A model generated the notes under the pieces. That model made no database searches and was not told where the DNA came from. It saw only the letters and a program-made list of their open reading frames with translations. Of a stretch of DNA of 64,000 nucleotides, positions 54,337 to 62,865 are shown one piece after another. Every line of letters starts with the position of its first letter. Position 1 is the stretch's first letter. Position numbers and translations under genes: made by a program. Origin of the DNA: a virus (taxonomy: Duplodnaviria > Heunggongvirae > Uroviricota > Caudoviricetes). The stretch is taken from the IMG/VR virus record IMGVR_UViG_2974794945_000001, positions 229,273-293,272 of that record; one strand, given 5' to 3'.

Positions 54337-55604
54337 GCAGTTACCTGTTCATTGGATTGATATTCACGAGAAGCACGAAGACGAACCTTGGCTTCAGTTG
54401 TAGTTTCAGTGACCCACACAGTCATGCAACCATTTTGATATTGGGCATTGACTGTAAATTTCAGTTCTGGAAATTTATCTACTAGTTGTTGTGTAATGTG
54501 TTCTGATACAACTGCATCGGCATTACCCAGGATAGCTTCCGTACCTAGGAAAACATCTTCCAGCGCTTTGGTTGCTACTGTAGTGATTTCAATAATCTTA
54601 CTGACATTACGTGAACGTTTCTTTTGTTCTTCCGTACGTACAGGGAAAAGATCATTGACCACATTGTCATTTGGCACTGGTGCACCTATAGTCATTTCGG
54701 TACGAGTAAAACCTAGATCATGAACAACTTCTTCATCACTGAGAGTATCCTCTACTACAATGGTGAATGTCCAATCCCGACCAATAGCAGCGGTTACGTT
54801 TACTTGGAAGTTTTCATTCTCGTAACGCTCAACCAAACGTTCTTTAATACGGATGTTAGCTGCGCAGATCATTTCATGGGTGTTCAGTTTAGAATCACCC
54901 AGTAGTTCATTAAATACTTCAGCAGCAATCTTCTTTACTTGTTTTGCAAAAACACTTTCTGTTTGGGACATTGTATCACCTTCAAAACGGGTAAGTGGTG
55001 CTTGTACCACTTCTACATAACAATGGTCAGGTGAGTTATAAATTGCACCCTGTACATTAAACATCAATGGCGCACCCAGTTCGTAGTCGGAATAATACAC
55101 CGAAACCGTAGTGTGATTTTCAGGGTAGACCATTTTTACTTGATCACGAATATCTTCTTCTACAAACAGACGAAGTTCTTCTGCCGTAGAGATAGCGTTG
55201 TTGCTAACATCAGCAACAACTTCTTTGGTAACGTTAATCAAGAACTCTTTGAAATCGGTAAACAACGGAATGAGTTCTTCCACTGGTAAAGTTTGTACCG
55301 ATTTGACAATCTGGAATTGATCAATATCACGATTAAGCTTTTCACAAACTTTAACCATGTACTGTTCTACATCAGAACCCTTAACCAAAGTAACGGTAAC
55401 GGTATGGTAATAGGTACCTAGCTCGTGGGTATCGGGAGTCCATTTGTAATCCGTTGCTAACTTGGCTTCTAACTTAGTAGCAAGTTCCAGGTTAATGCGA
55501 CCCACAATGTAAACATACTTCTGCGCATGGGTCAGATAAACTTGGCTGGTCACATCCTGCAAGTGCTTTAATACGGTTTCTTCTACTTGTTTGATTGTGT
55601 CCAT
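54333..55604 (-). CDS. hypothetical protein (423 aa)
   Basis: Long ORF; ATGA overlap with the downstream gene. Confidence 0.6.
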   Translation of the reverse strand: MDTIKQVEETVLKHLQDVTSQVYLTHAQKYVYIVGRINLELATKLEAKLATDYKWTPDTHELGTYYHTVTVTLVKGSDVEQYMVKVCEKLNRDIDQFQIVKSVQTLPVEELIPLFTDFKEFLINVTKEVVADVSNNAISTAEELRLFVEEDIRDQVKMVYPENHTTVSVYYSDYELGAPLMFNVQGAIYNSPDHCYVEVVQAPLTRFEGDTMSQTESVFAKQVKKIAAEVFNELLGDSKLNTHEMICAANIRIKERLVERYENENFQVNVTAAIGRDWTFTIVVEDTLSDEEVVHDLGFTRTEMTIGAPVPNDNVVNDLFPVRTEEQKKRSRNVSKIIEITTVATKALEDVFLGTEAILGNADAVVSEHITQQLVDKFPELKFTVNAQYQNGCMTVWVTETTTEAKVRLRASREYQSNEQVTA

Positions 55605-55605
55605 A

Positions 55606-56868
55606 TTAACCTTTCACACAGAGGAATTGTTTTAGGGTGTGCACGATTTCAACCAGTTCAGATTGTGCCGCCATTACGTCATCAATGTTCTTGTATGCCT
55701 TAGGGGTTTCATCCAGAACACTTGCATCTTTACGACATTCTACACCAGCTGTATCACGGATATGATCTTCCAGTGTAAAAGTCTTTTCTGCTTGTGTACG
55801 GGACATTACTCGACCTGCACCATGTGAACATGAACAGAACGATTCTCGGTTTCCTTTACCGCGGACAATGAATGACTTAGCACCCATAGAACCTGGAATG
55901 ATCCCCAGTGTTCCTTCACTTGCGTTGACTGCACCTTTACGTGTTACAATAACATTCTCACCAAAGTGGCGTTCTTGTGATACGTAGTTGTGGTGGCAGT
56001 TAATTGCCTCTAGATCCGAATCAATTGGCAGGCCCAGTGTTTTGTGGATGGCATCCAAAGCAGCGTGCATCATCACGGAACGATTTAGTGCAGCAAAGCG
56101 TTGTGCCCAAGATACGGCTTCAACGTAGTCATCGTAGTAACGTGAACCTTCCGGCAGATAAGAAAGATCTTTATCCGGAAGGTGGATAAAGAAACGCCCC
56201 ATTTCTTCTTTGGCTTTGCTAATGAAGTAAGTACCAATAGCGTTACCAATACCACGCGAACCCGAGTGTAGCATAATCCATACACGATCTGTTTCATCAA
56301 GACACAGTTCAATGAAGTGGTTACCCGTACCCAGTGTCCCTACATGGTTCCAAGCACGCTCGGATGCTTTCTTCAATTTAGGGTGGCGTTCAACAATGCT
56401 ATCCAATTGCTTCCGTAGTTTTGCAGCTTCTTCACGAACAGCTACGGTTGGGTGATTGAAGATATTAACGGTACCAAATGCACCACGATCATTCTTACCA
56501 CCATTGTCAGTACGACCATGTGGCACACATGCTTCAATGGCTGCACGAAGATGTCCCAGAGAGTCTGGAAGCGCGTCTGAAGAGAATCTCAGACGTTGTG
56601 CTGCCATTCCGCATCCAATATCAACACCTACCGCAGAAGGGATGATAGCGCCTTTGGTAGCAATAACAGAACCAATGGTTGCACCTTTACCCACATGAAC
56701 GTCTGGCATCACTGCTACGTGGGAATAAATGAATGGCAATGCTGCAATGTTTTTCAATTGCTTTACTGCATCGGGTTCTACTGGTACACCTACGGTCCAG
56801 CCTTTAATTGGCTTAGCTCCGTCAATAGGCTCACCACCTAGAATTTCAAATGTTTTACTCTGTTTCAT
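55606..56868 (-). CDS. rtcB: RtcB family RNA 3'-phosphate/2',3'-cyclic phosphate ligase
   Basis: RtcB motifs: LGTGNHFIEL, metal/GTP-binding residues, CSCSHGAGRVMSR; 420 aa. Confidence 0.85.
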   Translation of the reverse strand: MKQSKTFEILGGEPIDGAKPIKGWTVGVPVEPDAVKQLKNIAALPFIYSHVAVMPDVHVGKGATIGSVIATKGAIIPSAVGVDIGCGMAAQRLRFSSDALPDSLGHLRAAIEACVPHGRTDNGGKNDRGAFGTVNIFNHPTVAVREEAAKLRKQLDSIVERHPKLKKASERAWNHVGTLGTGNHFIELCLDETDRVWIMLHSGSRGIGNAIGTYFISKAKEEMGRFFIHLPDKDLSYLPEGSRYYDDYVEAVSWAQRFAALNRSVMMHAALDAIHKTLGLPIDSDLEAINCHHNYVSQERHFGENVIVTRKGAVNASEGTLGIIPGSMGAKSFIVRGKGNRESFCSCSHGAGRVMSRTQAEKTFTLEDHIRDTAGVECRKDASVLDETPKAYKNIDDVMAAQSELVEIVHTLKQFLCVKG

Positions 56869-56896
56869 ATAAATCTCTCACGGATGGAATTAGAGT

Positions 56897-57562
56897 TTAT
56901 TGATTAACGAATGTTTCACAATGCCCTTTTGGATCAAGCACAATATTACCTGTCCAAGTAAAACCTTTTTGTTCTTCTGTTTCAACGTTTGCTACTGCGC
57001 TGATTACAATTTGCCTTACTTCGCCATTTTTAATACTAGCAAAGTCTTTAGGAAACAAATGATCCCGAACTGCATTCAATACAACGTCGCCTTGAGTGGT
57101 TGTTGTAGGGACAGTAACAAATGCACTTAGTGCACGATCAACTTCGTTGTCTAGCAGACGCCACTGGACGTACGGGTGCAAGTGTCTGATGCTATCCCCG
57201 TCCATGTAATCCAAATGGGCTGAATGTTTATCGATCAAACGGTCTTGAAAAAGATCTGCTGTCTTGGTATACAGTTCAGGGTGGTCACGGAACAGCGAGT
57301 TTGTACAGTAAGTATTTTCTACAGTAGAAACGGGCTCAAGTTTTTCTAATGTTTCCCGGTAACACTCTTCCAACAGCATGAAGTAATTCTTACGCACAGG
57401 TCCCCAAATGTCCTCACGAATGATTTCGCGCAGGGCTGCAAATTCAGTAAGTTCCTTAAGGTTAACGCTACGGTTTGCACAGTGTAGTTCGTGCAAGCGT
57501 TCTTTAAATCCTTCTTGTAGCAAAGGAGCGAAGGGCTCCATAAATTTATCAAGTGCTGACAT
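56897..57562 (-). CDS. hypothetical protein (221 aa)
   Basis: ORF immediately upstream of rtcB. Confidence 0.55.
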   Translation of the reverse strand: MSALDKFMEPFAPLLQEGFKERLHELHCANRSVNLKELTEFAALREIIREDIWGPVRKNYFMLLEECYRETLEKLEPVSTVENTYCTNSLFRDHPELYTKTADLFQDRLIDKHSAHLDYMDGDSIRHLHPYVQWRLLDNEVDRALSAFVTVPTTTTQGDVVLNAVRDHLFPKDFASIKNGEVRQIVISAVANVETEEQKGFTWTGNIVLDPKGHCETFVNQ

Positions 57563-57949
57563 TGTAGATACCTATTGGGTTTGGTTATATAAACTGAAGC
57601 GGTAAGTATTATTAAACGGCATAAGAGCAGACCCGAAGGTCCACTCCTATTAAGGACTGTATAGTTATTAGCTGGCCAGCTTACCCCCGTAGTGTTCAGA
57701 GGTTAATAGCTATTACAGCACCGCGAGTCTTTTACATATCCAATGGTCCTACCACATGCAGCAAGAGGTGGCTTGGACGGACCTTGGATAAAAAGAAACT
57801 TACGATTCGGATCAGACGTAGTTGTCACACTAAGTAAGTCCATTCGGGTCGAAGCTTGACTGGCTTCGTTATGAGGTCTTCCCTCTATTTAAGAGCCGAA
57901 ACCGCGCAACCGGCAATGTTCTTCACATTATTACGTCTGTAGTATTTCT
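57563..57949 (-). other. ORF-free 0.39-kb spacer, possibly structured RNA or leader
   Basis: No ORF of 60 aa or more on either strand, between the radical SAM gene and the 221-aa gene; several local hairpins. Confidence 0.3.
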
Positions 57950-58831
57950 TTATTTTAAGAACGTACCACATGATGCTTTTACGTCTGTACCTACGCGAGG
58001 AATAACTTTGACTCGTGCCTTAGGCAAGCGTCTACGAATATAACCTGCCAGGTAATTAATCTGTCCTTCTAAGCTTTCTTGTGAGCTATGACCATCGGGT
58101 GGATTGTACCGAACAATGTTCCAATTGACATCCAGCTTATACGTATCAAGTTGATCACAGATCTTTGCTACGTCTGCAAGATCATCATTTTCATTACGAA
58201 TGAATGCATAATGAATCTTTGGTTTTTTACCGGTGGCTTGTTGCCAGGACATTAGCTTAGCAAACGCCGCACTCGGATTAAGTGCTTTAGGTATCCAGCG
58301 TTTACGAAACTCGGGTTTTAAGGAATACACCGAGTAATAAATTTCTGGATAAAGATCTGGATGTGTGAAGATTTCAGTTAATCCACGGTTCATCATTTCC
58401 TGTGGAAAAATGGTAGACACCAAAAACTTATATTCCAAACCGTAACGTGAAGCACGTTCCGCTAAACCATCCAAAATGATGTCGGCATTGTCTAGGAAGA
58501 TCTTGTTGGCTAAAGGTTCACCACGAGCCATGAAATTGAAATGTACTTTACGAGCCATTGTTTTAGTGGCGTAGTATTGTAGTACACGTTCAGCTTGATC
58601 CCAGTATTCTTCAATGGTTACATCACGTAGTTTGTTTTGTCCCGTAGCTGTTAAATGGCACATACGGCAGGCTTGATTACAGCCTGTCTGAGAAGACAAA
58701 TAAACAATGAAGTAATCATCGCTCCGACGTACATACCGTGCCTCTAACATCCCTGGGTGATCTTCAAAGCGGTGTTCAAAGTTAACGGACTGATCAAGTT
58801 GTGATATGTGTTGTTTAAAGATAAGTTCCAT
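57950..58831 (-). CDS. radical SAM enzyme, RlmN/Cfr-like (short form, 293 aa)
   Basis: YLSSQTGCNQACRMCHL matches RlmN/Cfr SSQVGCxxxCxFC (CX3CX2C). C-terminal conserved Cys in IPRVGTDVKASCGTF matches RlmN ..DIDAACGQL. Confidence 0.6.
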   Translation of the reverse strand: MELIFKQHISQLDQSVNFEHRFEDHPGMLEARYVRRSDDYFIVYLSSQTGCNQACRMCHLTATGQNKLRDVTIEEYWDQAERVLQYYATKTMARKVHFNFMARGEPLANKIFLDNADIILDGLAERASRYGLEYKFLVSTIFPQEMMNRGLTEIFTHPDLYPEIYYSVYSLKPEFRKRWIPKALNPSAAFAKLMSWQQATGKKPKIHYAFIRNENDDLADVAKICDQLDTYKLDVNWNIVRYNPPDGHSSQESLEGQINYLAGYIRRRLPKARVKVIPRVGTDVKASCGTFLK

Positions 58832-59088
58832 TAATCCACCTGTATTTCAATGAAGACTTCGGTACGACCAACCCATATTGAACCACGGGTGGCATATTGC
58901 GCATTGTAAGTCGCTTTGTTATCTACCCAAACTTGGTATACATCCTGACCACAATCTCGAATAAAATTCGAAACTTTATTAATAGCATAACGAACTTGCT
59001 TATCATTGAACCAGGGAAATGATAAGCGAATCTGTTTTTCCATGTTATCGTGGTACGACATTGTTATACTCCGCAATTTGGAAATCAC
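58831..59088 (-). CDS. hypothetical protein (85 aa)
   Basis: ORF. Confidence 0.5.
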   Translation of the reverse strand: MISKLRSITMSYHDNMEKQIRLSFPWFNDKQVRYAINKVSNFIRDCGQDVYQVWVDNKATYNAQYATRGSIWVGRTEVFIEIQVD

Positions 59089-59380
59089 CTAGGTTAACAA
59101 CAAACCCTCCAATTGTACTAATCACAACCGGTCTGTGTTTACGATAAAGCCCGTGTTGCTCACGCCAGTAATCTTGTAGATGTGCATCTACAAAAGCTTC
59201 TGTATGTCCTGGGGTAAATATTTCACCCCATTGCGGTTCTAACGCCTTCTCTATTTGGTATTGGTAACTCTTAATAACGTGGTGTGGTGGATCAGTCTCT
59301 GGACCAAAATAGGTCTCACGTTTATGTGCAATCTTTGCGTGGATCATGTCTTTAAATGCAGCATTAGTTCTTTCATTCAT
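59045..59380 (-). CDS. hypothetical protein (111 aa)
   Basis: ORF. Confidence 0.5.
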   Translation of the reverse strand: MNERTNAAFKDMIHAKIAHKRETYFGPETDPPHHVIKSYQYQIEKALEPQWGEIFTPGHTEAFVDAHLQDYWREQHGLYRKHRPVVISTIGGFVVNLGDFQIAEYNNVVPR

Positions 59381-59402
59381 TGTAAATTCCTATTTTTAGT
59401 AT

Positions 59403-59915
59403 TTAACCAATCCGAATAACTAGTACATCTTCAGCAAAGTTATTAGCAACCCATTGCATGAAGTTAGCATCAGTAACACCCATAAAGTTTAGAGTGTATG
59501 ATGCATCATCAATAAGAATGTATTTAATGCGTTCATACAATTCTTTTTCTGGTTCTGCTCCATGCTTAACTTTATCTCTTAACGTACATGTTGACAAATG
59601 GGGAACAATAGTGGTGGTGCTATTTTTCTTATTGTATTTGGCAGTAAGTGACCGTTGAGTAAAGTCATCTTTTACAATAAGCAAGCATTCACCAAGTTGT
59701 TTCTTACTGATGAAATCAATAATGGTTTCTGTTTTACCTGATTGACGTCCAACAAAGAAACCGACTGTCCTTAGTTCACGAATAGTAGAGGGTAAGCCCA
59801 AACGCAAACTATCTTTGTTTTTGTAGTAGACCTCATTGGTCTTTTCAATTAGTGCATCAAGCATTGCCTGATAATCAATTTGAATTGCCGGTGTTTTAAT
59901 GTATTCGTTTTTCAT
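59403..59915 (-). CDS. small P-loop NTPase-like protein (170 aa)
   Basis: Walker A-like VGRQSGKTE; possible Walker B ILIDDA. Confidence 0.5.
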   Translation of the reverse strand: MKNEYIKTPAIQIDYQAMLDALIEKTNEVYYKNKDSLRLGLPSTIRELRTVGFFVGRQSGKTETIIDFISKKQLGECLLIVKDDFTQRSLTAKYNKKNSTTTIVPHLSTCTLRDKVKHGAEPEKELYERIKYILIDDASYTLNFMGVTDANFMQWVANNFAEDVLVIRIG

Positions 59916-59984
59916 GGGTATTCCAATAGTAGAGGTACTGCAATCGTAAAGACCATTCTTTACTTATACATTGTCGCACTGAGT

Positions 59985-60019
59985 ATTTTATGGCATAAAG
60001 CTTTCCCCTAGGGGAAAGC
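59985..60019 (-). terminator. palindromic hairpin gctttcccc-ta-ggggaaagc + A/T tail (terminator after tRNA-Leu)
   Basis: Perfect 9-bp stem; on minus it is followed by tttatgcc. Confidence 0.5.
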
Positions 60020-60031
60020 ACTATACTTGTT

Positions 60032-60117
60032 TGGTGCGGACGAAGAGACTCGAACTCTCACGGGCTAAGCCCGCTGGAACCTAAATCCAGTGCGTCTACC
60101 AATTCCGCCACATCCGC
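60032..60117 (-). tRNA. tRNA-Leu (anticodon UAG), type II, CCA encoded
   Basis: Minus-strand sequence GCGGATGTGGCGGAATTGGTAGACGCACTGGATTTAGGTTCCAGCGGGCTTAGCCCGTGAGAGTTCGAGTCTCTTCGTCCGCACCA. 7-bp acceptor, anticodon stem CTGGA/TCCAG with loop TTTAGGT, long variable arm, T-loop TTCGAGT. Confidence 0.85.
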
Positions 60118-60154
60118 TTGTATATTATTACACTTGTGGTATTCTTTTACAGTA

Positions 60155-60877
60155 TTAGGTTATTTGAATTGACCACTCATTGTTTTCCCAACTGTCTTTT
60201 TGTTTTGTTATAAGAGCTTTATGAATTGTAGTGTAATTTATTTTGGTATATTTAGCAGCATCCATAAGTGTTTCAAATGTGTGAGCTTCGCCTGTAACTT
60301 TATTAGCCGCCATTGTAATAAACCATGTTCTCTTTTTACTAGATATCTTAGGCCATGGTTTTATTGACATGTGTCTGAAAGCGTAGTTGCAATAAGCGTA
60401 TTGTCCAGCCATGTTACCCCGTAAATGTTTGGCTAGGGTAGGTAATGGTACACCATATTTCTCTGCTGCTCGTCGAATAGATTTCTCTGTAAATATCTCA
60501 CCGCTATTAATGTTAAGAATTTGTATTTCTATTGGGATAGGGGTAAGCTTATTATCAACCGCATGAATAACATTACCTGATCCTGTTACCCATTCTAAGT
60601 TAGTTTTTGTATTGTTTGCTTTATTGCCGTCTTTATGATTAACTTCAAGTTGTTTAAATGGAATATGTTGTAAATGCATTGGTCGTTTAACATAGGTAAT
60701 TGCATATATGCGGTGTACTCGATACGCCCTATGTTTCATTCCAGGTGAGGTTAAAACAATATTCATGTATCCTGATTTTGTTTTATGTTGTTTAAGTATT
60801 TTGCATGTTCGGTAATTAAACAATACCCCTTCGGGACTTACTCCGATCCTATTGTCATTTGGAAATGGTTTATACAT
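60155..60877 (-). CDS. HNH homing endonuclease
   Basis: HNH core AYRVHRIYAITYV...LEVNHKDGNKANNTKTNLEWVT; sits between two tRNA genes, as is typical of phage tRNA islands. Confidence 0.75.
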   Translation of the reverse strand: MYKPFPNDNRIGVSPEGVLFNYRTCKILKQHKTKSGYMNIVLTSPGMKHRAYRVHRIYAITYVKRPMHLQHIPFKQLEVNHKDGNKANNTKTNLEWVTGSGNVIHAVDNKLTPIPIEIQILNINSGEIFTEKSIRRAAEKYGVPLPTLAKHLRGNMAGQYAYCNYAFRHMSIKPWPKISSKKRTWFITMAANKVTGEAHTFETLMDAAKYTKINYTTIHKALITKQKDSWENNEWSIQIT

Positions 60878-60946
60878 TTTAAGTCCTGTCTACTATTACA
60901 CTATACAATAGGACATAAAACCAACCCTAAGGTTGGCTATGTTTTT

Positions 60947-61032
60947 TGGTGCCTGAAGGGGGACTCGAACCCACCAATCCCGAAGGCGGGAGTGTTTAAG
61001 ACTCCTATCTATACCAATTCGATCATTCAGGC
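60947..61032 (-). tRNA. tRNA-Leu (anticodon UAA), type II, CCA encoded
   Basis: Minus-strand GCCTGAATGATCGAATTGGTATAGATAGGAGTCTTAAACACTCCCGCCTTCGGGATTGGTGGGTTCGAGTCCCCCTTCAGGCACCA. Anticodon stem GGAGT/ACTCC with loop CTTAAAC. Confidence 0.8.
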
Positions 61033-61039
61033 GTATACT

Positions 61040-61850
61040 TTCTAGAATGGTGTGTCTACCGATTTCACCATCCGGGCTAATTTGATCCAGCATCCAAAAC
61101 GTACAGGTTTGGTTAACAACAAACACAAGGTCGTTGGTAGATCGGTCGCTGGAAGAACCTTTTCATCCTAGTACATAGCCACAACGAACTGCGGTAAACC
61201 GCTAGAGTTGTAACCGGCGAGCTAGGTCTATCTACTTACTCGCCTACAGCGCTTCAGGACGATGGAGGGCAAGTAATTGAGAATCGAGGGTAACCAATTA
61301 GACGCTTTGCTAGCTCCGGCTTTCACGGAGTGCCGACTAACCCATTACCATGACCAGTAGGCAGACTGGGTAGCTGGGACACAAGGTCCAGTTCGGGAAT
61401 ATGGGGTTGCGTGTAAGAAATCAGCCAGGGATCTGAAACATGTTTTCTTACACCAACCAGTGACGGACATCTGATCCGTTGCAGCCGAGTCTGCCGCCTC
61501 TTCGGTATGCGCCTTAGTAACCGGGACTATCCAGTCTTTGGGGTATCATGGGTCGGGCTTTGAGCTTCCCTGTTAACTGACTATTCTAGTCTTTTGTCAG
61601 TCGTCGTAGGGGTTCATTAAAATCTCACACCATGCAGCTCGGTGCCCTAGTCTGAGGATTAATCAGGCATCAGTGTAAGACTTGCCTATCCCTTCCGGGC
61701 TAGGGCTTCACCGTTCCAATGGGCTCGGTGTATGAGATTGATAGTAACGATTTAACGCTCCTTGGCAGCTTTCCCAATTCACGCAACCTTTACCGAACGT
61801 TAGAGGAAACCTCCTTACCCAACATCCGAACTATCTATCTCATGCTCTTG
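61040..61850 (-). other. 0.8-kb ORF-free region (candidate structured RNA, intron-like element or long UTR)
   Basis: No ORF of 60 aa or more in six frames between tRNA-Leu(UAA) and the 224-aa gene. Contains a possible GACTA/TAGTC long-range pair (about 61340 and 61640). Confidence 0.3.
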
Positions 61851-61851
61851 A

Positions 61852-62526
61852 CTACTCGTGAGTAGTTTCTAAACTGTGTATTACGCAAACTGAACCATCG
61901 TCTAACGCGGTCTTGGCGTTGTAATCAATTTGATTATAGACACCACCATGAAATTGGAAGATTCGATCACGCCAAGTACTATCCAGCTTTAAAGCAGGAC
62001 AATCAGATTTACGACCTTCGCACAGAGCGTTGATTGTTACTGAACCTGCTTTAGTTACGTGGAGAGTAATCTTGAACGGCACACCTAGTGGTACGTTTTC
62101 CAAAACAGTAAAGTTATTGATTACTGGATCGGTAAAGCTACTACGGAAACCAGCCGTAAGTTTTCCTTTATTCCAGAAAACTTTCAATGGTGGAGTAGTA
62201 GCATTTTTAACGTGTACTTGAGCAACTACCACTTTCTTAGCTGAGTTAACTCGAACTAATGTCATCTCTTGTCGAGACCAGTGATGTGCGGCACTATCCA
62301 TAGGCCAGTAGTTTGCTTCTTTCCATTCACACCGCGTACGATGTGTACTTTTACTAGATGCACCTAATGTTGGTGCTGAGAGTTGTATCGAACCGTCTTC
62401 TAATTGACTGATCACATCCGCACACTTCACCAAGGCCTCTGAACCAATTAATTCCCAAGCAACAGGATTATTGATACTGACCGGTAAGGGAGTGGCTATT
62501 AAGTAATGATTAATGTCAACTAACAT
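61852..62526 (-). CDS. hypothetical protein (224 aa)
   Basis: ORF downstream of the tRNA cluster on the minus strand. Confidence 0.55.
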   Translation of the reverse strand: MLVDINHYLIATPLPVSINNPVAWELIGSEALVKCADVISQLEDGSIQLSAPTLGASSKSTHRTRCEWKEANYWPMDSAAHHWSRQEMTLVRVNSAKKVVVAQVHVKNATTPPLKVFWNKGKLTAGFRSSFTDPVINNFTVLENVPLGVPFKITLHVTKAGSVTINALCEGRKSDCPALKLDSTWRDRIFQFHGGVYNQIDYNAKTALDDGSVCVIHSLETTHE

Positions 62527-62547
62527 TTCTTTACTCTCTTTTAATAG

Positions 62548-62690
62548 GTGGAGCGTCCTAGTCTAACTAGACGACAGCTAATGCTGATTGGATTTGCACC
62601 AATGTACTCCGGGTACGAGAGTGTCCTTGGCCACTAGACGAACTACCCTAATGGATAGTAACGGGGTCGAACCGTTGTTTCTCTCTATCA
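62548..62690 (-). pseudogene. tRNA-like remnants (canonical T-arm AACGG-TTCGACC-CCGTT; internal about 20-nt direct repeat), no complete cloverleaf found by eye
   Basis: Minus strand directly 3' of tRNA-Ser carries a perfect T-arm plus ACTATCCA tail. CATTAG..TCGTCTAGT occurs twice, 72 nt apart. Confidence 0.3.
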
Positions 62691-62691
62691 C

Positions 62692-62783
62692 TGGAGGAAG
62701 AATAGGGATTTGAACCCTAGGGCAGTCCTTAGACCACCAGAGCTTTAGCAAAGCCCCTCGTTAAACCACTCCGACATTCTTCC
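62692..62783 (-). tRNA. tRNA-Ser (anticodon GCU), type II, CCA encoded
   Basis: Minus-strand GGAAGAATGTCGGAGTGGTTTAACGAGGGGCTTTGCTAAAGCTCTGGTGGTCTAAGGACTGCCCTAGGGTTCAAATCCCTATTCTTCCTCCA. Anticodon loop TTGCTAA. Confidence 0.8.
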
Positions 62784-62789
62784 TGTAAT

Positions 62790-62865
62790 TGGCGGGCTAT
62801 GATGGACTCGAACCACCAACACGCGGCTTTGGAGGCCGCTGTTCTGCCAATTGAACTAATAACCC
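62790..62865 (-). tRNA. tRNA-Trp (anticodon CCA), CCA end encoded
   Basis: Minus-strand GGGTTATTAGTTCAATTGGCAGAACAGCGGCCTCCAAAGCCGCGTGTTGGTGGTTCGAGTCCATCATAGCCCGCCA. Anticodon stem GCGGC/GCCGC with loop CTCCAAA. Confidence 0.8.

What the first reader, a model, noticed from the sequence alone, without database searches (positions are those of the whole stretch)
57950..58831. Truncated RlmN/Cfr-like radical SAM methyltransferase next to phage tRNA genes
CX3CX2C cluster in the RlmN/Cfr-type context (SSQTGCNQACRMCHL). A conserved C-terminal Cys (ASCGTF) corresponds to the methyl-carrying Cys of RlmN/Cfr. The N-terminal accessory domain of bacterial RlmN is missing (293 versus about 380 aa). RlmN methylates C2 of A2503 in 23S rRNA and A37 in some tRNAs; Cfr methylates C8 and confers multi-antibiotic resistance. 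A phage copy could reprogram ribosome or tRNA modification, or act on the phage's own tRNAs. A minimal phage version of this family is, to my knowledge, unusual.
Basis: partly seen in the sequence, partly recalled or inferred. Interest (0 to 1): 0.6.

Follow-up and report, generated by a model that had tools for sequence, protein, structure and literature searches.

The report
Phage RlmN/Cfr-like enzyme lacking one cysteine
This jumbo-phage gene encodes an intact radical SAM enzyme related to the RNA methylases RlmN and Cfr, but it belongs to a separate, uncharacterised, mostly phage-borne family that has swapped one of the two catalytic cysteines for an invariant tyrosine, so it is neither a true RlmN nor a true Cfr.

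Summary
The ORF is real: window 57950-58831 (-), 293 aa, PSA21_398 of Pseudomonas jumbo phage Psa21. GenBank already calls it "RlmN". RlmN and Cfr are its closest relatives by HMM, PDB profile and predicted fold. It scores 55 and 48 bits against curated cut-offs of 290 and 530. It lacks the N-terminal accessory domain.

It keeps the CX3CX2C cluster (C51/C55/C58) and the methyl-carrying Cys (C288 = RlmN C355). The resolving Cys (RlmN C118 / Cfr C105) is Tyr44. That Tyr is present in 148 of 149 divergent family representatives, and no other conserved Cys exists.

The gene is not a truncation. It is a full-length member of a large family (at least 420 clusters at 50% identity) carried mainly by jumbo phages, often in or beside tRNA arrays. 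In Psa21-like phages the order is tRNA array, this gene, RtcB.

One derived bacterial clade (Planctomycetota/Myxococcota) sits divergently next to an AbiEii nucleotidyltransferase and LRR operon.

Best reading: a new single-Cys/Tyr variant of class A radical SAM methylases, probably C-methylating an adenine in RNA, most likely tRNA. Substrate and chemistry are inferred, not shown. Interest is moderate to high.

The parts
57950..58831 (-). CDS PSA21_398, 293 aa: RlmN/Cfr-like (class-A-like) radical SAM enzyme of a distinct phage-dominated family (PHROG 27142)
   Evidence: ORF list. GenBank record. NCBIfam RlmN 55 bits and Cfr 48 bits. PHROG 27142 at 480 bits. AF2 pLDDT 90.9. Foldseek RlmN TMq 0.77.
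58658..58681 (-). Codons for C51-x3-C55-x2-C58, the radical SAM [4Fe-4S] cluster motif
   Evidence: Read directly from the sequence. Invariant in 149 of 149 representatives. Aligns with Cfr C112/C116/C119.
58700..58702 (-). Codon for Tyr44, at the position of the resolving Cys of RlmN (C118) and Cfr (C105), seven residues before the first cluster Cys
   Evidence: Ungapped HMMER alignments to Cfr 9p0p, 6fz6 and E. coli RlmN. Tyr in 119 of 120 close homologues, the remaining sequence having a gap there. Tyr in 148 of 149 distant homologues.
58514..58525 (-). Codons for R103-G104-E105-P106, equivalent to the GxGEP SAM-binding motif of RlmN/Cfr. M101 just upstream aligns with Cfr M155 of the 5'-dA pocket.
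   Evidence: Alignment. Pocket residues listed in PMC12887959. Conservation.
57959..57994 (-). Codons for V280-GTDVKASCGTF-291, the C-terminal loop carrying Cys288, equivalent to the methyl-carrying RlmN C355 / Cfr C338
   Evidence: Alignments. C288 conserved in 148 of 149 representatives; the exception is a C-terminally aberrant sequence. Lower pLDDT in this tail is consistent with a mobile loop.
58829..58841 (-). Shine-Dalgarno-like AGGTGG (58836-58841) and ATG (58829-58831). The ATG overlaps the TAA stop of the upstream 76-aa ORF (TAATG), suggesting translational coupling.
   Evidence: Read from the sequence.
55606..56868 (-). Context: RtcB tRNA/RNA ligase, two genes downstream on the same strand. 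The order tRNA array, radical SAM gene, RtcB is conserved in 8 related chimallivirus loci.
   Evidence: Pfam RtcB 432 bits. PHROG 1075. Synteny table.
60032..62865 (-). Context: start of the phage tRNA array (Leu-tag, Leu-taa, Ser-gct, Trp-cca; more lie beyond the window in the record), upstream on the same strand
   Evidence: ARAGORN. Rfam. GenBank record.

Best explanation
PSA21_398 is an intact, functional member of a third, previously undescribed branch of the RlmN/Cfr-type (class A) radical SAM enzymes.

Shown:
- It has the RlmN-like radical SAM core with the N-terminal beta extension.
- It has the CX3CX2C cluster ligands, the GEP/Met SAM and 5'-dA pocket, and the C-terminal mobile loop with Cys288 at the position of the methyl-carrying Cys.
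- It has no N-terminal helical RNA-binding domain.
- It has an invariant Tyr44 where RlmN and Cfr have the crosslink-resolving Cys.

Inferred mechanism:
- One SAM methylates Cys288.
- A second SAM is cleaved at the [4Fe-4S] cluster to give the 5'-deoxyadenosyl radical.
- That radical abstracts H from the S-methyl group.
- The resulting methylene radical adds to an sp2 carbon of a purine, probably adenine C2 or C8.
- Tyr44, acting as a base or a proton-coupled electron-transfer residue, takes the role of the missing Cys in releasing the methylated product.

Inferred substrate and role: RNA, most likely tRNA, as part of a phage tRNA supply, repair and protection module (tRNA array, this gene, RtcB). 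It is not a duplicate of host RlmN and not a Cfr resistance gene.
For: Closest family:
- NCBIfam top hits are RlmN and Cfr over nearly the full core, model positions 78-341 of 355.
- The family profile against PDB gives Cfr E 6e-17, an RlmN-like protein E 3e-9 and E. coli RlmN E 1e-7, with nothing else below 0.01.
- AF2 pLDDT is 90.9. Foldseek gives RlmN/6fz6 TMq 0.77-0.78 and Cfr 0.64; the next fold, PFL-AE, is 0.52.

Active-site conservation:
- C51/C55/C58, G104-E105, M101 and C288-G289 are invariant or nearly so across 149 representatives that are 37-52% identical to the query.
- They match the Cfr cluster and 5'-dA pocket residues listed in PMC12887959.
- Strong purifying selection across at least 420 clusters at 50% identity argues for an active enzyme.

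tRNA link in phages:
- 17 of 51 scanned IMG/VR loci, in about 9 separate lineages, have tRNA genes within 8 kb.
- The gene is embedded inside tRNA arrays in L105, L151 and L100.
- A tRNA array, radical SAM, RtcB block is conserved in 8 Psa21-like loci.
- A CCA-adding enzyme lies about 2 kb downstream in Caulobacter and Brevundimonas jumbo phages.

tRNA link in bacteria:
- 39 of 66 genomic loci pair the gene with an AbiEii-family nucleotidyltransferase.
- From my own knowledge, not checked in a paper here: characterised members of that toxin family (MenT) modify tRNA 3' ends.

RlmN itself methylates tRNA A37 (PMC9692996; PMC5130265).
Against: - No experiment exists. Substrate, regiochemistry and even methyl transfer are inferred by homology.
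- The resolving Cys, described as indispensable in RlmN and Cfr (PMC9692996), is absent. The chemistry may therefore differ: a stable crosslink, another radical outcome, or a Cys/Tyr H-atom relay.
- The N-terminal domain of RlmN and Cfr is missing, so RNA recognition must differ.
- About two thirds of phage lineages show no tRNA genes nearby. Some place the gene beside DNA ligase, SbcCD-like or UvsX-like genes.
- tRNA regions of jumbo phages are also general dumping grounds for accessory genes.
- The AbiEii linkage is confined to one derived bacterial clade and is absent from the phages.
- Scores to RlmN and Cfr models are far below the curated cut-offs.
Confidence: 0.5

Rival explanations
1. 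It is a covalent RNA-trapping (single-turnover) enzyme. Without the resolving Cys, the Cys288-CH2-adenine adduct is the end product, so the protein crosslinks itself to a target RNA (host tRNA, rRNA or a defence RNA) and inactivates or marks it.
For: RlmN C118A and the corresponding Cfr mutant accumulate a stable protein-RNA crosslink (PMC9692996; PDB 5hr6/5hr7). The family has no Cys at that position and no other conserved Cys. The bacterial clade is associated with an AbiEii toxin.
Against: The replacement is an invariant Tyr rather than a variable or small residue, which suggests a catalytic role. Stoichiometric suicide is costly. The family is conserved in many phages as a solo gene.
Confidence: 0.12
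2. It is an RlmN/Cfr-fold enzyme with a non-RNA substrate or non-methylating chemistry. It might act on phage or host DNA adenine, on a free nucleotide or signalling nucleotide, or use Cys288/Tyr44 as an H-atom relay (as the Cys/Tyr pair does in spore photoproduct lyase, from my own knowledge) rather than as a methyl carrier.
For: The RNA-binding N-terminal domain is absent. One defining Cys is changed. In several phage lineages the neighbours are DNA ligase, SbcCD-like and UvsX-like genes. Some bacterial clusters add a sulfotransferase and a sulfatase, which hints at small-molecule chemistry.
Against: The C-terminal Cys loop and the 5'-dA pocket are conserved exactly as in the methylases. tRNA-array embedding recurs in independent lineages. 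No DNA-modification genes are consistently linked.
Confidence: 0.18
3. It is an ordinary RlmN orthologue, as annotated in GenBank, making m2A2503 in 23S rRNA and m2A37 in tRNA.
For: The GenBank and JGI product names say so. The best NCBIfam hit for the Psa21 protein is TIGR00048.
Against: It scores 55 bits against a cut-off of 290. C118 is replaced by Tyr. The N-terminal domain is missing. Bacteria, including Pseudomonas, carry their own rlmN (own knowledge), so a duplicate would add little.
Confidence: 0.06
4. It is a Cfr-like C8 methylase of A2503 that changes ribosome drug sensitivity or function.
For: The family profile hits Cfr best in PDB (65.6 bits). The RYNP motif is shared with Cfr. 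Bacterial members score higher on Cfr models than on RlmN models.
Against: It scores 48-77 bits against cut-offs of 468-550. The C105 equivalent is absent. There is no N-terminal domain. There is no link to resistance contexts.
Confidence: 0.05
5. It belongs to a different radical SAM subfamily (QueE, NrdG/PFL-AE activase, viperin and the like), and the RlmN resemblance is generic.
For: Pfam detects only a sub-threshold generic Radical_SAM match (19.4 bits against a gathering score of 29.5).
Against: PFL-AE scores 16 bits and viperin 12.5 bits, against RlmN 55 bits covering the whole core. On fold, RlmN has TMq 0.77 against 0.52 for PFL-AE. The RlmN/Cfr-specific C-terminal GxD(I/V)xA(A/S)CG motif is present.
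Confidence: 0.02

Closest known systems
RlmN (dual-specificity 23S rRNA A2503 / tRNA A37 C2-methyltransferase; class A radical SAM methylase; PDB 3RFA, 5HR7)
   Same: Radical SAM core with extra N-terminal beta strands (Foldseek TMq 0.77). SSQxGC-x3-C-x2-C motif, GEP motif, STx, ND and NP motifs. C-terminal GxDxxAxCG loop with the methyl-carrying Cys.
   Different: No N-terminal helical accessory domain of about 60 residues. Tyr instead of the resolving Cys118. About 19% identity. 55 bits against a cut-off of 290. Encoded mainly by jumbo phages.
Cfr (23S rRNA A2503 C8-methyltransferase, PhLOPSA resistance; PDB 9P0P)
   Same: Best PDB sequence match for the family profile (E 6e-17). Shares the N(L/I)(I/V)RYNP motif and the 5'-dA pocket residues. 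The C338 equivalent is present.
   Different: The C105 equivalent is Tyr. The N-terminal domain is absent. 48 bits against cut-offs of 468-550. Not on resistance elements.
AbiE / MenAT-type AbiEii nucleotidyltransferase toxin systems (context of the bacterial clade only)
   Same: In 39 of 66 bacterial loci the homologue sits beside a bona fide AbiEii gene (Pfam 74-84 bits, PADLOC E 1e-52) that retains the GG...DxD motif.
   Different: No AbiEi antitoxin is present. The partners are a TIGR02996+LRR protein and often a sulfotransferase. The radical SAM protein matches no PADLOC model. Phage copies have no AbiEii partner.

Membership tests
RlmN (NCBIfam TIGR00048 / PRK11194) | Score at or above the curated equivalog cut-off | tested here: not met
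   55.1 bits against 290 (TIGR00048) and 29.6 bits against 633 (NF008396).
RlmN / Cfr (class A radical SAM methylases) | CX3CX2C [4Fe-4S] radical SAM motif in the SSQxGC context | tested here: met
   C51/C55/C58 in YLSSQTGCNQACRMC, invariant in the family.
RlmN / Cfr (class A radical SAM methylases) | Methyl-carrying Cys in the C-terminal loop (RlmN C355 / Cfr C338) | tested here: met
   C288 in GTDVKASCGTF aligns with the Cys of GxDIxAACGQ in Cfr, 6fz6 and RlmN. Conserved in 148 of 149 representatives. Methylation itself was not tested.
RlmN / Cfr (class A radical SAM methylases) | Second conserved, crosslink-resolving Cys (RlmN C118 / Cfr C105), seven residues before the first cluster Cys | tested here: not met
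   Tyr44 occupies this position in ungapped alignments. Tyr in 148 of 149 representatives and Cys in one, P0258. No other conserved Cys exists. The review defines class A by two conserved Cys.
RlmN / Cfr | N-terminal helical accessory domain preceding the radical SAM core | tested here: not met
   The match starts at model position 78 of 355, about RlmN residue 67. The protein starts directly with the beta extension.
RlmN / Cfr | RlmN-type fold (radical SAM partial barrel plus beta extension plus C-terminal stretch) | tested here: met
   Foldseek top 11 hits are all RlmN or Cfr. TMq is 0.73-0.78 for RlmN/6fz6 and 0.64 for Cfr, E down to 6e-15.
RlmN / Cfr | Catalytic activity: C2 or C8 methylation of A2503 / A37 | not testable with these tools
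   Needs biochemistry and nucleoside mass spectrometry.
Cfr (NF000424, TIGR04432, PRK14453) | Score at or above the curated cut-off | tested here: not met
   47.9, 43.1 and 41.4 bits against cut-offs of 530, 550 and 468.
Radical SAM superfamily (Pfam PF04055) | Pfam gathering score | tested here: inconclusive
   19.4 bits against a gathering score of 29.5, covering only residues 46-109. Superfamily membership is nevertheless clear from the motif and the fold.
PHROG 27142 ('Fe-S-cluster redox domain-containing') | Full-length HMM match | tested here: met
   E 6.5e-144, 480 bits, residues 1-293 on profile positions 2-300 of 300.
AbiEii-linked radical SAM gene cluster of Planctomycetota/Myxococcota | Adjacent AbiEii nucleotidyltransferase and TIGR02996-LRR genes | tested here: not met
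   No AbiEii, LRR or sulfotransferase homologue in the window or the Psa21 flanks. No AbiEii homologue in any radical-SAM-bearing jumbo phage record.
Other radical SAM subfamilies (PFL-AE/NrdG-type activases, viperin, QueE) | Best or threshold-level HMM match | tested here: not met
   PFL-AE 16.3 bits against 231.75 and viperin 12.5 bits against 180; QueE is not listed.

The most novel reading that the evidence does not exclude
The family is a mechanistically new kind of class A radical SAM enzyme, with one Cys plus one Tyr. Jumbo phages would use it to install a so far unknown purine C-methylation, or a covalent mark, on tRNA. That mark would protect the tRNA pool from host tRNA-targeting toxins such as AbiEii/MenT-type nucleotidyltransferases or anticodon nucleases. 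In Planctomycetota and Myxococcota the same enzyme would have been recruited as the target-protecting (type IV antitoxin-like) partner of an AbiEii-LRR module.
Probability: 0.2. Interest if true: 0.8.

Novelty: new variant of a known kind. Interest (0 to 1): 0.55.

Why it matters
Class A radical SAM methylases are defined by a two-cysteine mechanism that has only two characterised members, RlmN and Cfr. This is a large natural family that keeps the whole scaffold and the methyl-carrying Cys but replaces the 'indispensable' resolving Cys with an invariant Tyr. It therefore offers a direct test of how the protein-RNA adduct is resolved.

Biologically, the gene sits with tRNA arrays, RtcB and CCA-adding enzymes in jumbo phages, and with an AbiEii toxin in bacteria. 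That points to an unexplored RNA-modification layer in the phage-host conflict over tRNA.

Practically, the current database names ('RlmN', 'Cfr family', '23S rRNA (adenine2503-C2)-methyltransferase') are over-annotations. They should not be read as rRNA methylation or antibiotic resistance.

Tried and rejected
- Pfam gave only a sub-threshold generic Radical_SAM hit.
- PADLOC gave no hit for the radical SAM protein.
- Literature searches on RlmN plus phage, AbiEii plus radical SAM, jumbo phage plus radical SAM or Cfr, resolving cysteine plus tyrosine, 201phi2-1 plus radical SAM, and phage or viral radical SAM phrases found no description of this family. A search for Psa21 or RlmN listed only RlmN papers among those shown, none mentioning Psa21.
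- Clustering of neighbours in 78 IMG/VR loci found no partner conserved beyond single lineages (largest cluster 10 loci). Those neighbours look like DNA ligase, SbcCD-like and UvsX-like proteins by my reading of the sequences; they were not scanned against a family library.
- On Pseudomonas megaplasmid pMPPla107 the neighbours are all hypothetical and gave no Pfam hit.
- The family pI distribution (5.7-9.0) does not indicate nucleic-acid binding either way.
- A first crude ORF-clustering of the high-GC bacterial loci was confounded by spurious overlapping ORFs. I replaced it with tblastn using called genes.
- N-terminal extensions in a few long homologues are mutually unrelated and probably mis-called starts.
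- Cys at position 43, seen in 24% of representatives, is a variable hydrophobic position (V/C/I/A) and not a conserved substitute for C118.
- I could not measure the Tyr44-Cys288 distance because the model coordinates are not exposed.
Full report
**1. Observation**

The window is part of Pseudomonas phage Psa21, a 305-kb jumbo phage of genus Tepukevirus that infects P. syringae pv. actinidiae. Window 55000-62000 is 100% identical to MK552327.1 positions 284272-291272.

The reported ORF exists exactly as described: 57950..58831, minus strand, ATG start, 293 aa.
- Its ATG overlaps the stop of the upstream small ORF (TAATG).
- An AGGTGG Shine-Dalgarno-like sequence lies 4 nt upstream.
- Its GC content (40.9%) matches the window (42.3%).
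- It contains C51-x3-C55-x2-C58 in the context YLSSQTGCNQACRMCHL, and a C-terminal VGTDVKASCGTF with C288. These account for four of its five cysteines; the fifth is C225.
- Four tRNA genes lie upstream on the same strand inside the window. More follow in the record.

The gene is PSA21_398. GenBank already annotates it as 'ribosomal RNA large subunit methyltransferase N'. RefSeq calls it 'Fe-S-cluster redox domain-containing'.

**2. Family assignment**

Sequence models:
- Pfam sees only a sub-threshold generic Radical_SAM match (19.4 bits against a gathering score of 29.5).
- NCBIfam ranks RlmN (TIGR00048, 55 bits, model positions 78-341 of 355) and Cfr (48, 43 and 41 bits) first.
- These are 5- to 10-fold below the curated cut-offs of 290 and 468-550. 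PFL-AE, viperin and others are at noise level.
- PHROG 27142 matches full length at 480 bits.

Solved structures and fold:
- A 25-sequence family profile against all PDB sequences hits only Cfr (9P0P, E 6e-17), an RlmN homologue (6FZ6, E 3e-9) and E. coli RlmN (E 1e-7).
- The AlphaFold2 model is confident (pLDDT 90.9, pTM 0.89).
- Its 11 best Foldseek hits in PDB are all RlmN or Cfr. TMq is 0.73-0.78 for RlmN/6FZ6 and 0.64 for Cfr. There is a clear drop to PFL-AE at 0.52.

RlmN/Cfr is therefore the nearest known kind.

**3. The two catalytic cysteines**

All HMMER alignments (Cfr, 6FZ6, RlmN wild type and C118A) are ungapped between the first cluster Cys and the position seven residues upstream. 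There RlmN has C118 and Cfr has C105. The phage protein has Tyr44. C288 aligns with RlmN C355 / Cfr C338.

Conservation:
- In the 120 closest homologues (at least 51% identity), Y44 and C288 are invariant apart from an alignment gap in one sequence.
- In 149 representatives of 50%-identity clusters (37-52% identical to the query), Y44 is present in 148. One, P0258, has Cys.
- C288 is present in 148. The exception has an aberrant C-terminus.
- No other column is conserved as Cys.

The review PMC9692996 defines class A radical SAM methylases by 'two conserved cysteine residues'. It states that C118/C105 are indispensable for resolving the protein-RNA crosslink, probably acting as a general base on C2/C8.

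The 5'-dA and SAM pocket residues listed for Cfr (F118, C119, M155, I290, C338, G339; PMC12887959) correspond to M57 (F in half of the family), C58, M101, V240, C288 and G289. The correspondence for V240 rests on my reading of the aligned NLIRYNP and NIVRYNP motifs. These positions are conserved in the family.

The N-terminal helical domain of RlmN and Cfr is absent. The protein begins with the beta extension, where the conserved S10-x2-D13-x-S15-V-N17 aligns with the segment of RlmN that I recall as carrying its SxDGTxK motif.

**4. Distribution**

The family is large:
- 2086 hits among 90%-identity clusters.
- In the 50%-identity library, 420 clusters at E<=1e-30 and 936 at E<=1e-10. Nearly all of the 150 listed are 275-315 aa.

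GenBank phages carrying it are all jumbo phages:
- Pseudomonas chimalliviruses Psa21, D6, RVTF4, Phabio, Viktualia and 201phi2-1 (gp434), at 62-75% identity.
- Caulobacter CcrColossus and CcrPW, at about 45%.
- Brevundimonas jumbo phages, at 38-42%.

IMG/VR yields 78 loci, many on contigs of 180-460 kb.

Among 185,579 species-representative genomes only 66 loci were found:
- Most are Planctomycetota and Myxococcota MAGs.
- Others are Pseudomonas megaplasmids of about 1 Mb, including pMPPla107.
- A few are in Actinomycetota, Rhizobiales and Acetobacteraceae.

A midpoint-rooted neighbour-joining tree has no outgroup, so it is tentative. It places the phage sequences on all deep branches. The bacterial AbiEii-linked copies form one derived clade, sister to the Pseudomonas chimallivirus and megaplasmid clades.

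**5. Context in phages**

No neighbour is conserved across lineages; the largest neighbour cluster covers 10 of 78 loci.

tRNA genes recur, however:
- 17 of 51 scanned loci, in about nine separate lineages, have tRNA genes within 8 kb.
- In L105 the gene lies between tRNA-Arg and tRNA-Phe inside a 22-tRNA array.
- In L151 it lies inside a 21-tRNA array, and in L100 inside another.
- In eight Psa21-like loci the order tRNA array, radical SAM gene, (small ORF), RtcB is conserved. The 201phi2-1-like sublineage lacks RtcB at this position.
- RtcB in the window (55606-56868) is a solid match, Pfam 432 bits.
- In Caulobacter and Brevundimonas phages a CCA-adding tRNA nucleotidyltransferase lies about 2 kb downstream.

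Other lineages place the gene next to proteins that look like NAD-dependent DNA ligase, SbcCD-like and UvsX-like proteins by my reading of the sequences.

In Psa21 the annotated tRNA array spans about 7 kb of 305 kb. The gene lies 1.2 kb from its edge. This is suggestive, but I did not test it against a formal background.

**6. Context in bacteria**

In 39 of 66 loci an AbiEii-family nucleotidyltransferase gene is nearby.
- In 34 of these it lies 57-263 bp upstream on the opposite strand.
- It is followed in an operon by one to three copies of a 490-700-aa TIGR02996+LRR protein.
- In 22 loci a sulfotransferase-like protein follows, sometimes with a sulfatase.

The AbiEii proteins diverge to 30-50% identity while synteny holds. 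One locus (L023) keeps the same genes in a different order. Both points argue for functional linkage.

AbiEii is well supported: Pfam 74-84 bits, PADLOC E 1e-52, with the GG...DxD motif present. No AbiEi antitoxin is present. The clusters sit among housekeeping genes.

The phages carry no AbiEii, LRR or sulfotransferase homologue.

From my own knowledge, characterised AbiEii relatives (MenT toxins) nucleotidylate tRNA 3' ends. AbiE is classed as a type IV toxin-antitoxin system, in which the antitoxin acts without binding the toxin.

**7. Interpretation**

Shown:
- It is an intact, strongly conserved radical SAM enzyme with the RlmN/Cfr scaffold.
- The cluster ligands, the SAM pocket and the C-terminal Cys loop are present.
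- The N-terminal domain is missing.
- An invariant Tyr replaces the resolving Cys.
- The family is a distinct, phage-dominated lineage.

Inferred:
- Cys288 carries a methyl group that is activated by the 5'-deoxyadenosyl radical and added to a purine sp2 carbon.
- Tyr44 substitutes for the Cys as base or proton-coupled electron-transfer residue.
- The substrate is RNA, most likely tRNA.
- The enzyme serves a phage tRNA maintenance and protection module.

I give this combined statement about 0.5. The 'distinct RlmN/Cfr-like family' part is about 0.9. 'Purine C-methylation of RNA' is about 0.5. 'tRNA' is about 0.35-0.4.

Rivals:
- A suicide RNA crosslinker (0.12).
- A non-RNA substrate or non-methylating chemistry (0.18).
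- A plain RlmN (0.06).
- A Cfr-like resistance enzyme (0.05).
- Another radical SAM subfamily (0.02).

**8. Novelty and verdict**

I found no paper describing this family, its Cys-to-Tyr change or its AbiEii association. Existing database names are automated over-annotations.

It is best filed as a new variant of a known kind: class A radical SAM methylase-like, one Cys plus Tyr, without the N-terminal domain. Interest is 0.55.

The most novel reading not excluded is a new tRNA-protecting modification enzyme that has been recruited as the antitoxin-like partner of AbiEii in bacteria. I give it about 0.2 probability.

Noticed in passing
window 61033-61851 (- strand), directly 5' of tRNA-Leu(taa) 60947-61032: An 820-nt stretch in the tRNA array has no ORF, no tRNA and no Rfam match. 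Two blocks (about 61452-61711 and 61110-61295) are 73-84% identical in related chimalliviruses: L075, L077, L079, L084-86, phage D6, and partly Phabio. RNAalifold on block 1 (6 sequences) gives 48 pairs, 12 of them with compensatory double changes, against 6.0 +/- 1.6 in shuffles (0 of 500) and at most 2 in slid controls. The MFE z-score is -2.2. This is a candidate novel structured phage ncRNA.
   Followed up: partly
bacterial loci L006, L007, L009-L060, L155, L157, L158 (for example L007 4877-8891): A conserved gene cluster in Planctomycetota and Myxococcota has a radical SAM homologue divergent from an operon of AbiEii nucleotidyltransferase, one to three TIGR02996+LRR proteins, and often a sulfotransferase and a sulfatase. 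No AbiEi antitoxin is present, and the radical SAM, LRR and sulfotransferase-like proteins match no PADLOC model. This may be an undescribed toxin-antitoxin or defence module.
   Followed up: partly
window 57563-57949 (- strand): A 387-nt non-coding gap lies between the radical SAM stop and the next ORF. It includes a 13-bp hairpin with a UUCG tetraloop (GGAGUGGACC UUCG GGUCUGCUCU). The MFE z-score is -2.4. Relatives carry a 105-aa ORF (cluster c16) at the corresponding position, and no remnant of it is detectable here.
   Followed up: partly
window 60155-60877 (-): An HNH homing-type endonuclease (HNH_3, HTH_psq and NUMOD1 domains) is inserted between the two tRNA-Leu genes. The same arrangement is found in phage D6.
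   Followed up: partly
window 61852-62526 (-): A gene annotated as polysaccharide lyase family 7 (alginate-lyase-like) lies inside the tRNA array. It is absent at this position in phage D6.
   Followed up: no
P0258 (metagenomic family member): This is the single family representative with Cys instead of Tyr at the position equivalent to RlmN C118 (VVCLSSQTGC). It is otherwise a typical family member, and it scores higher on the RlmN model (72 bits) than other members do. It may be an evolutionary intermediate or a revertant.
   Followed up: partly
L129 5871-6026 (IMG/VR contig IMGVR_UViG_3300037189_023253): ARAGORN calls two adjacent tRNAs with anticodon CTA as tRNA-Pyl, that is, amber suppressor-type tRNAs. 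They lie 2 kb upstream of the radical SAM homologue and hint at stop-codon recoding in that phage.
   Followed up: no
L153 (pMPPla107, NZ_CP031226.1 534898-549737): On the roughly 1-Mb Pseudomonas megaplasmids the homologue sits in a co-directional run of about ten hypothetical proteins of 270-450 aa. Its stop overlaps the next gene's start. Nine of these neighbours were scanned and none has a Pfam match.
   Followed up: partly
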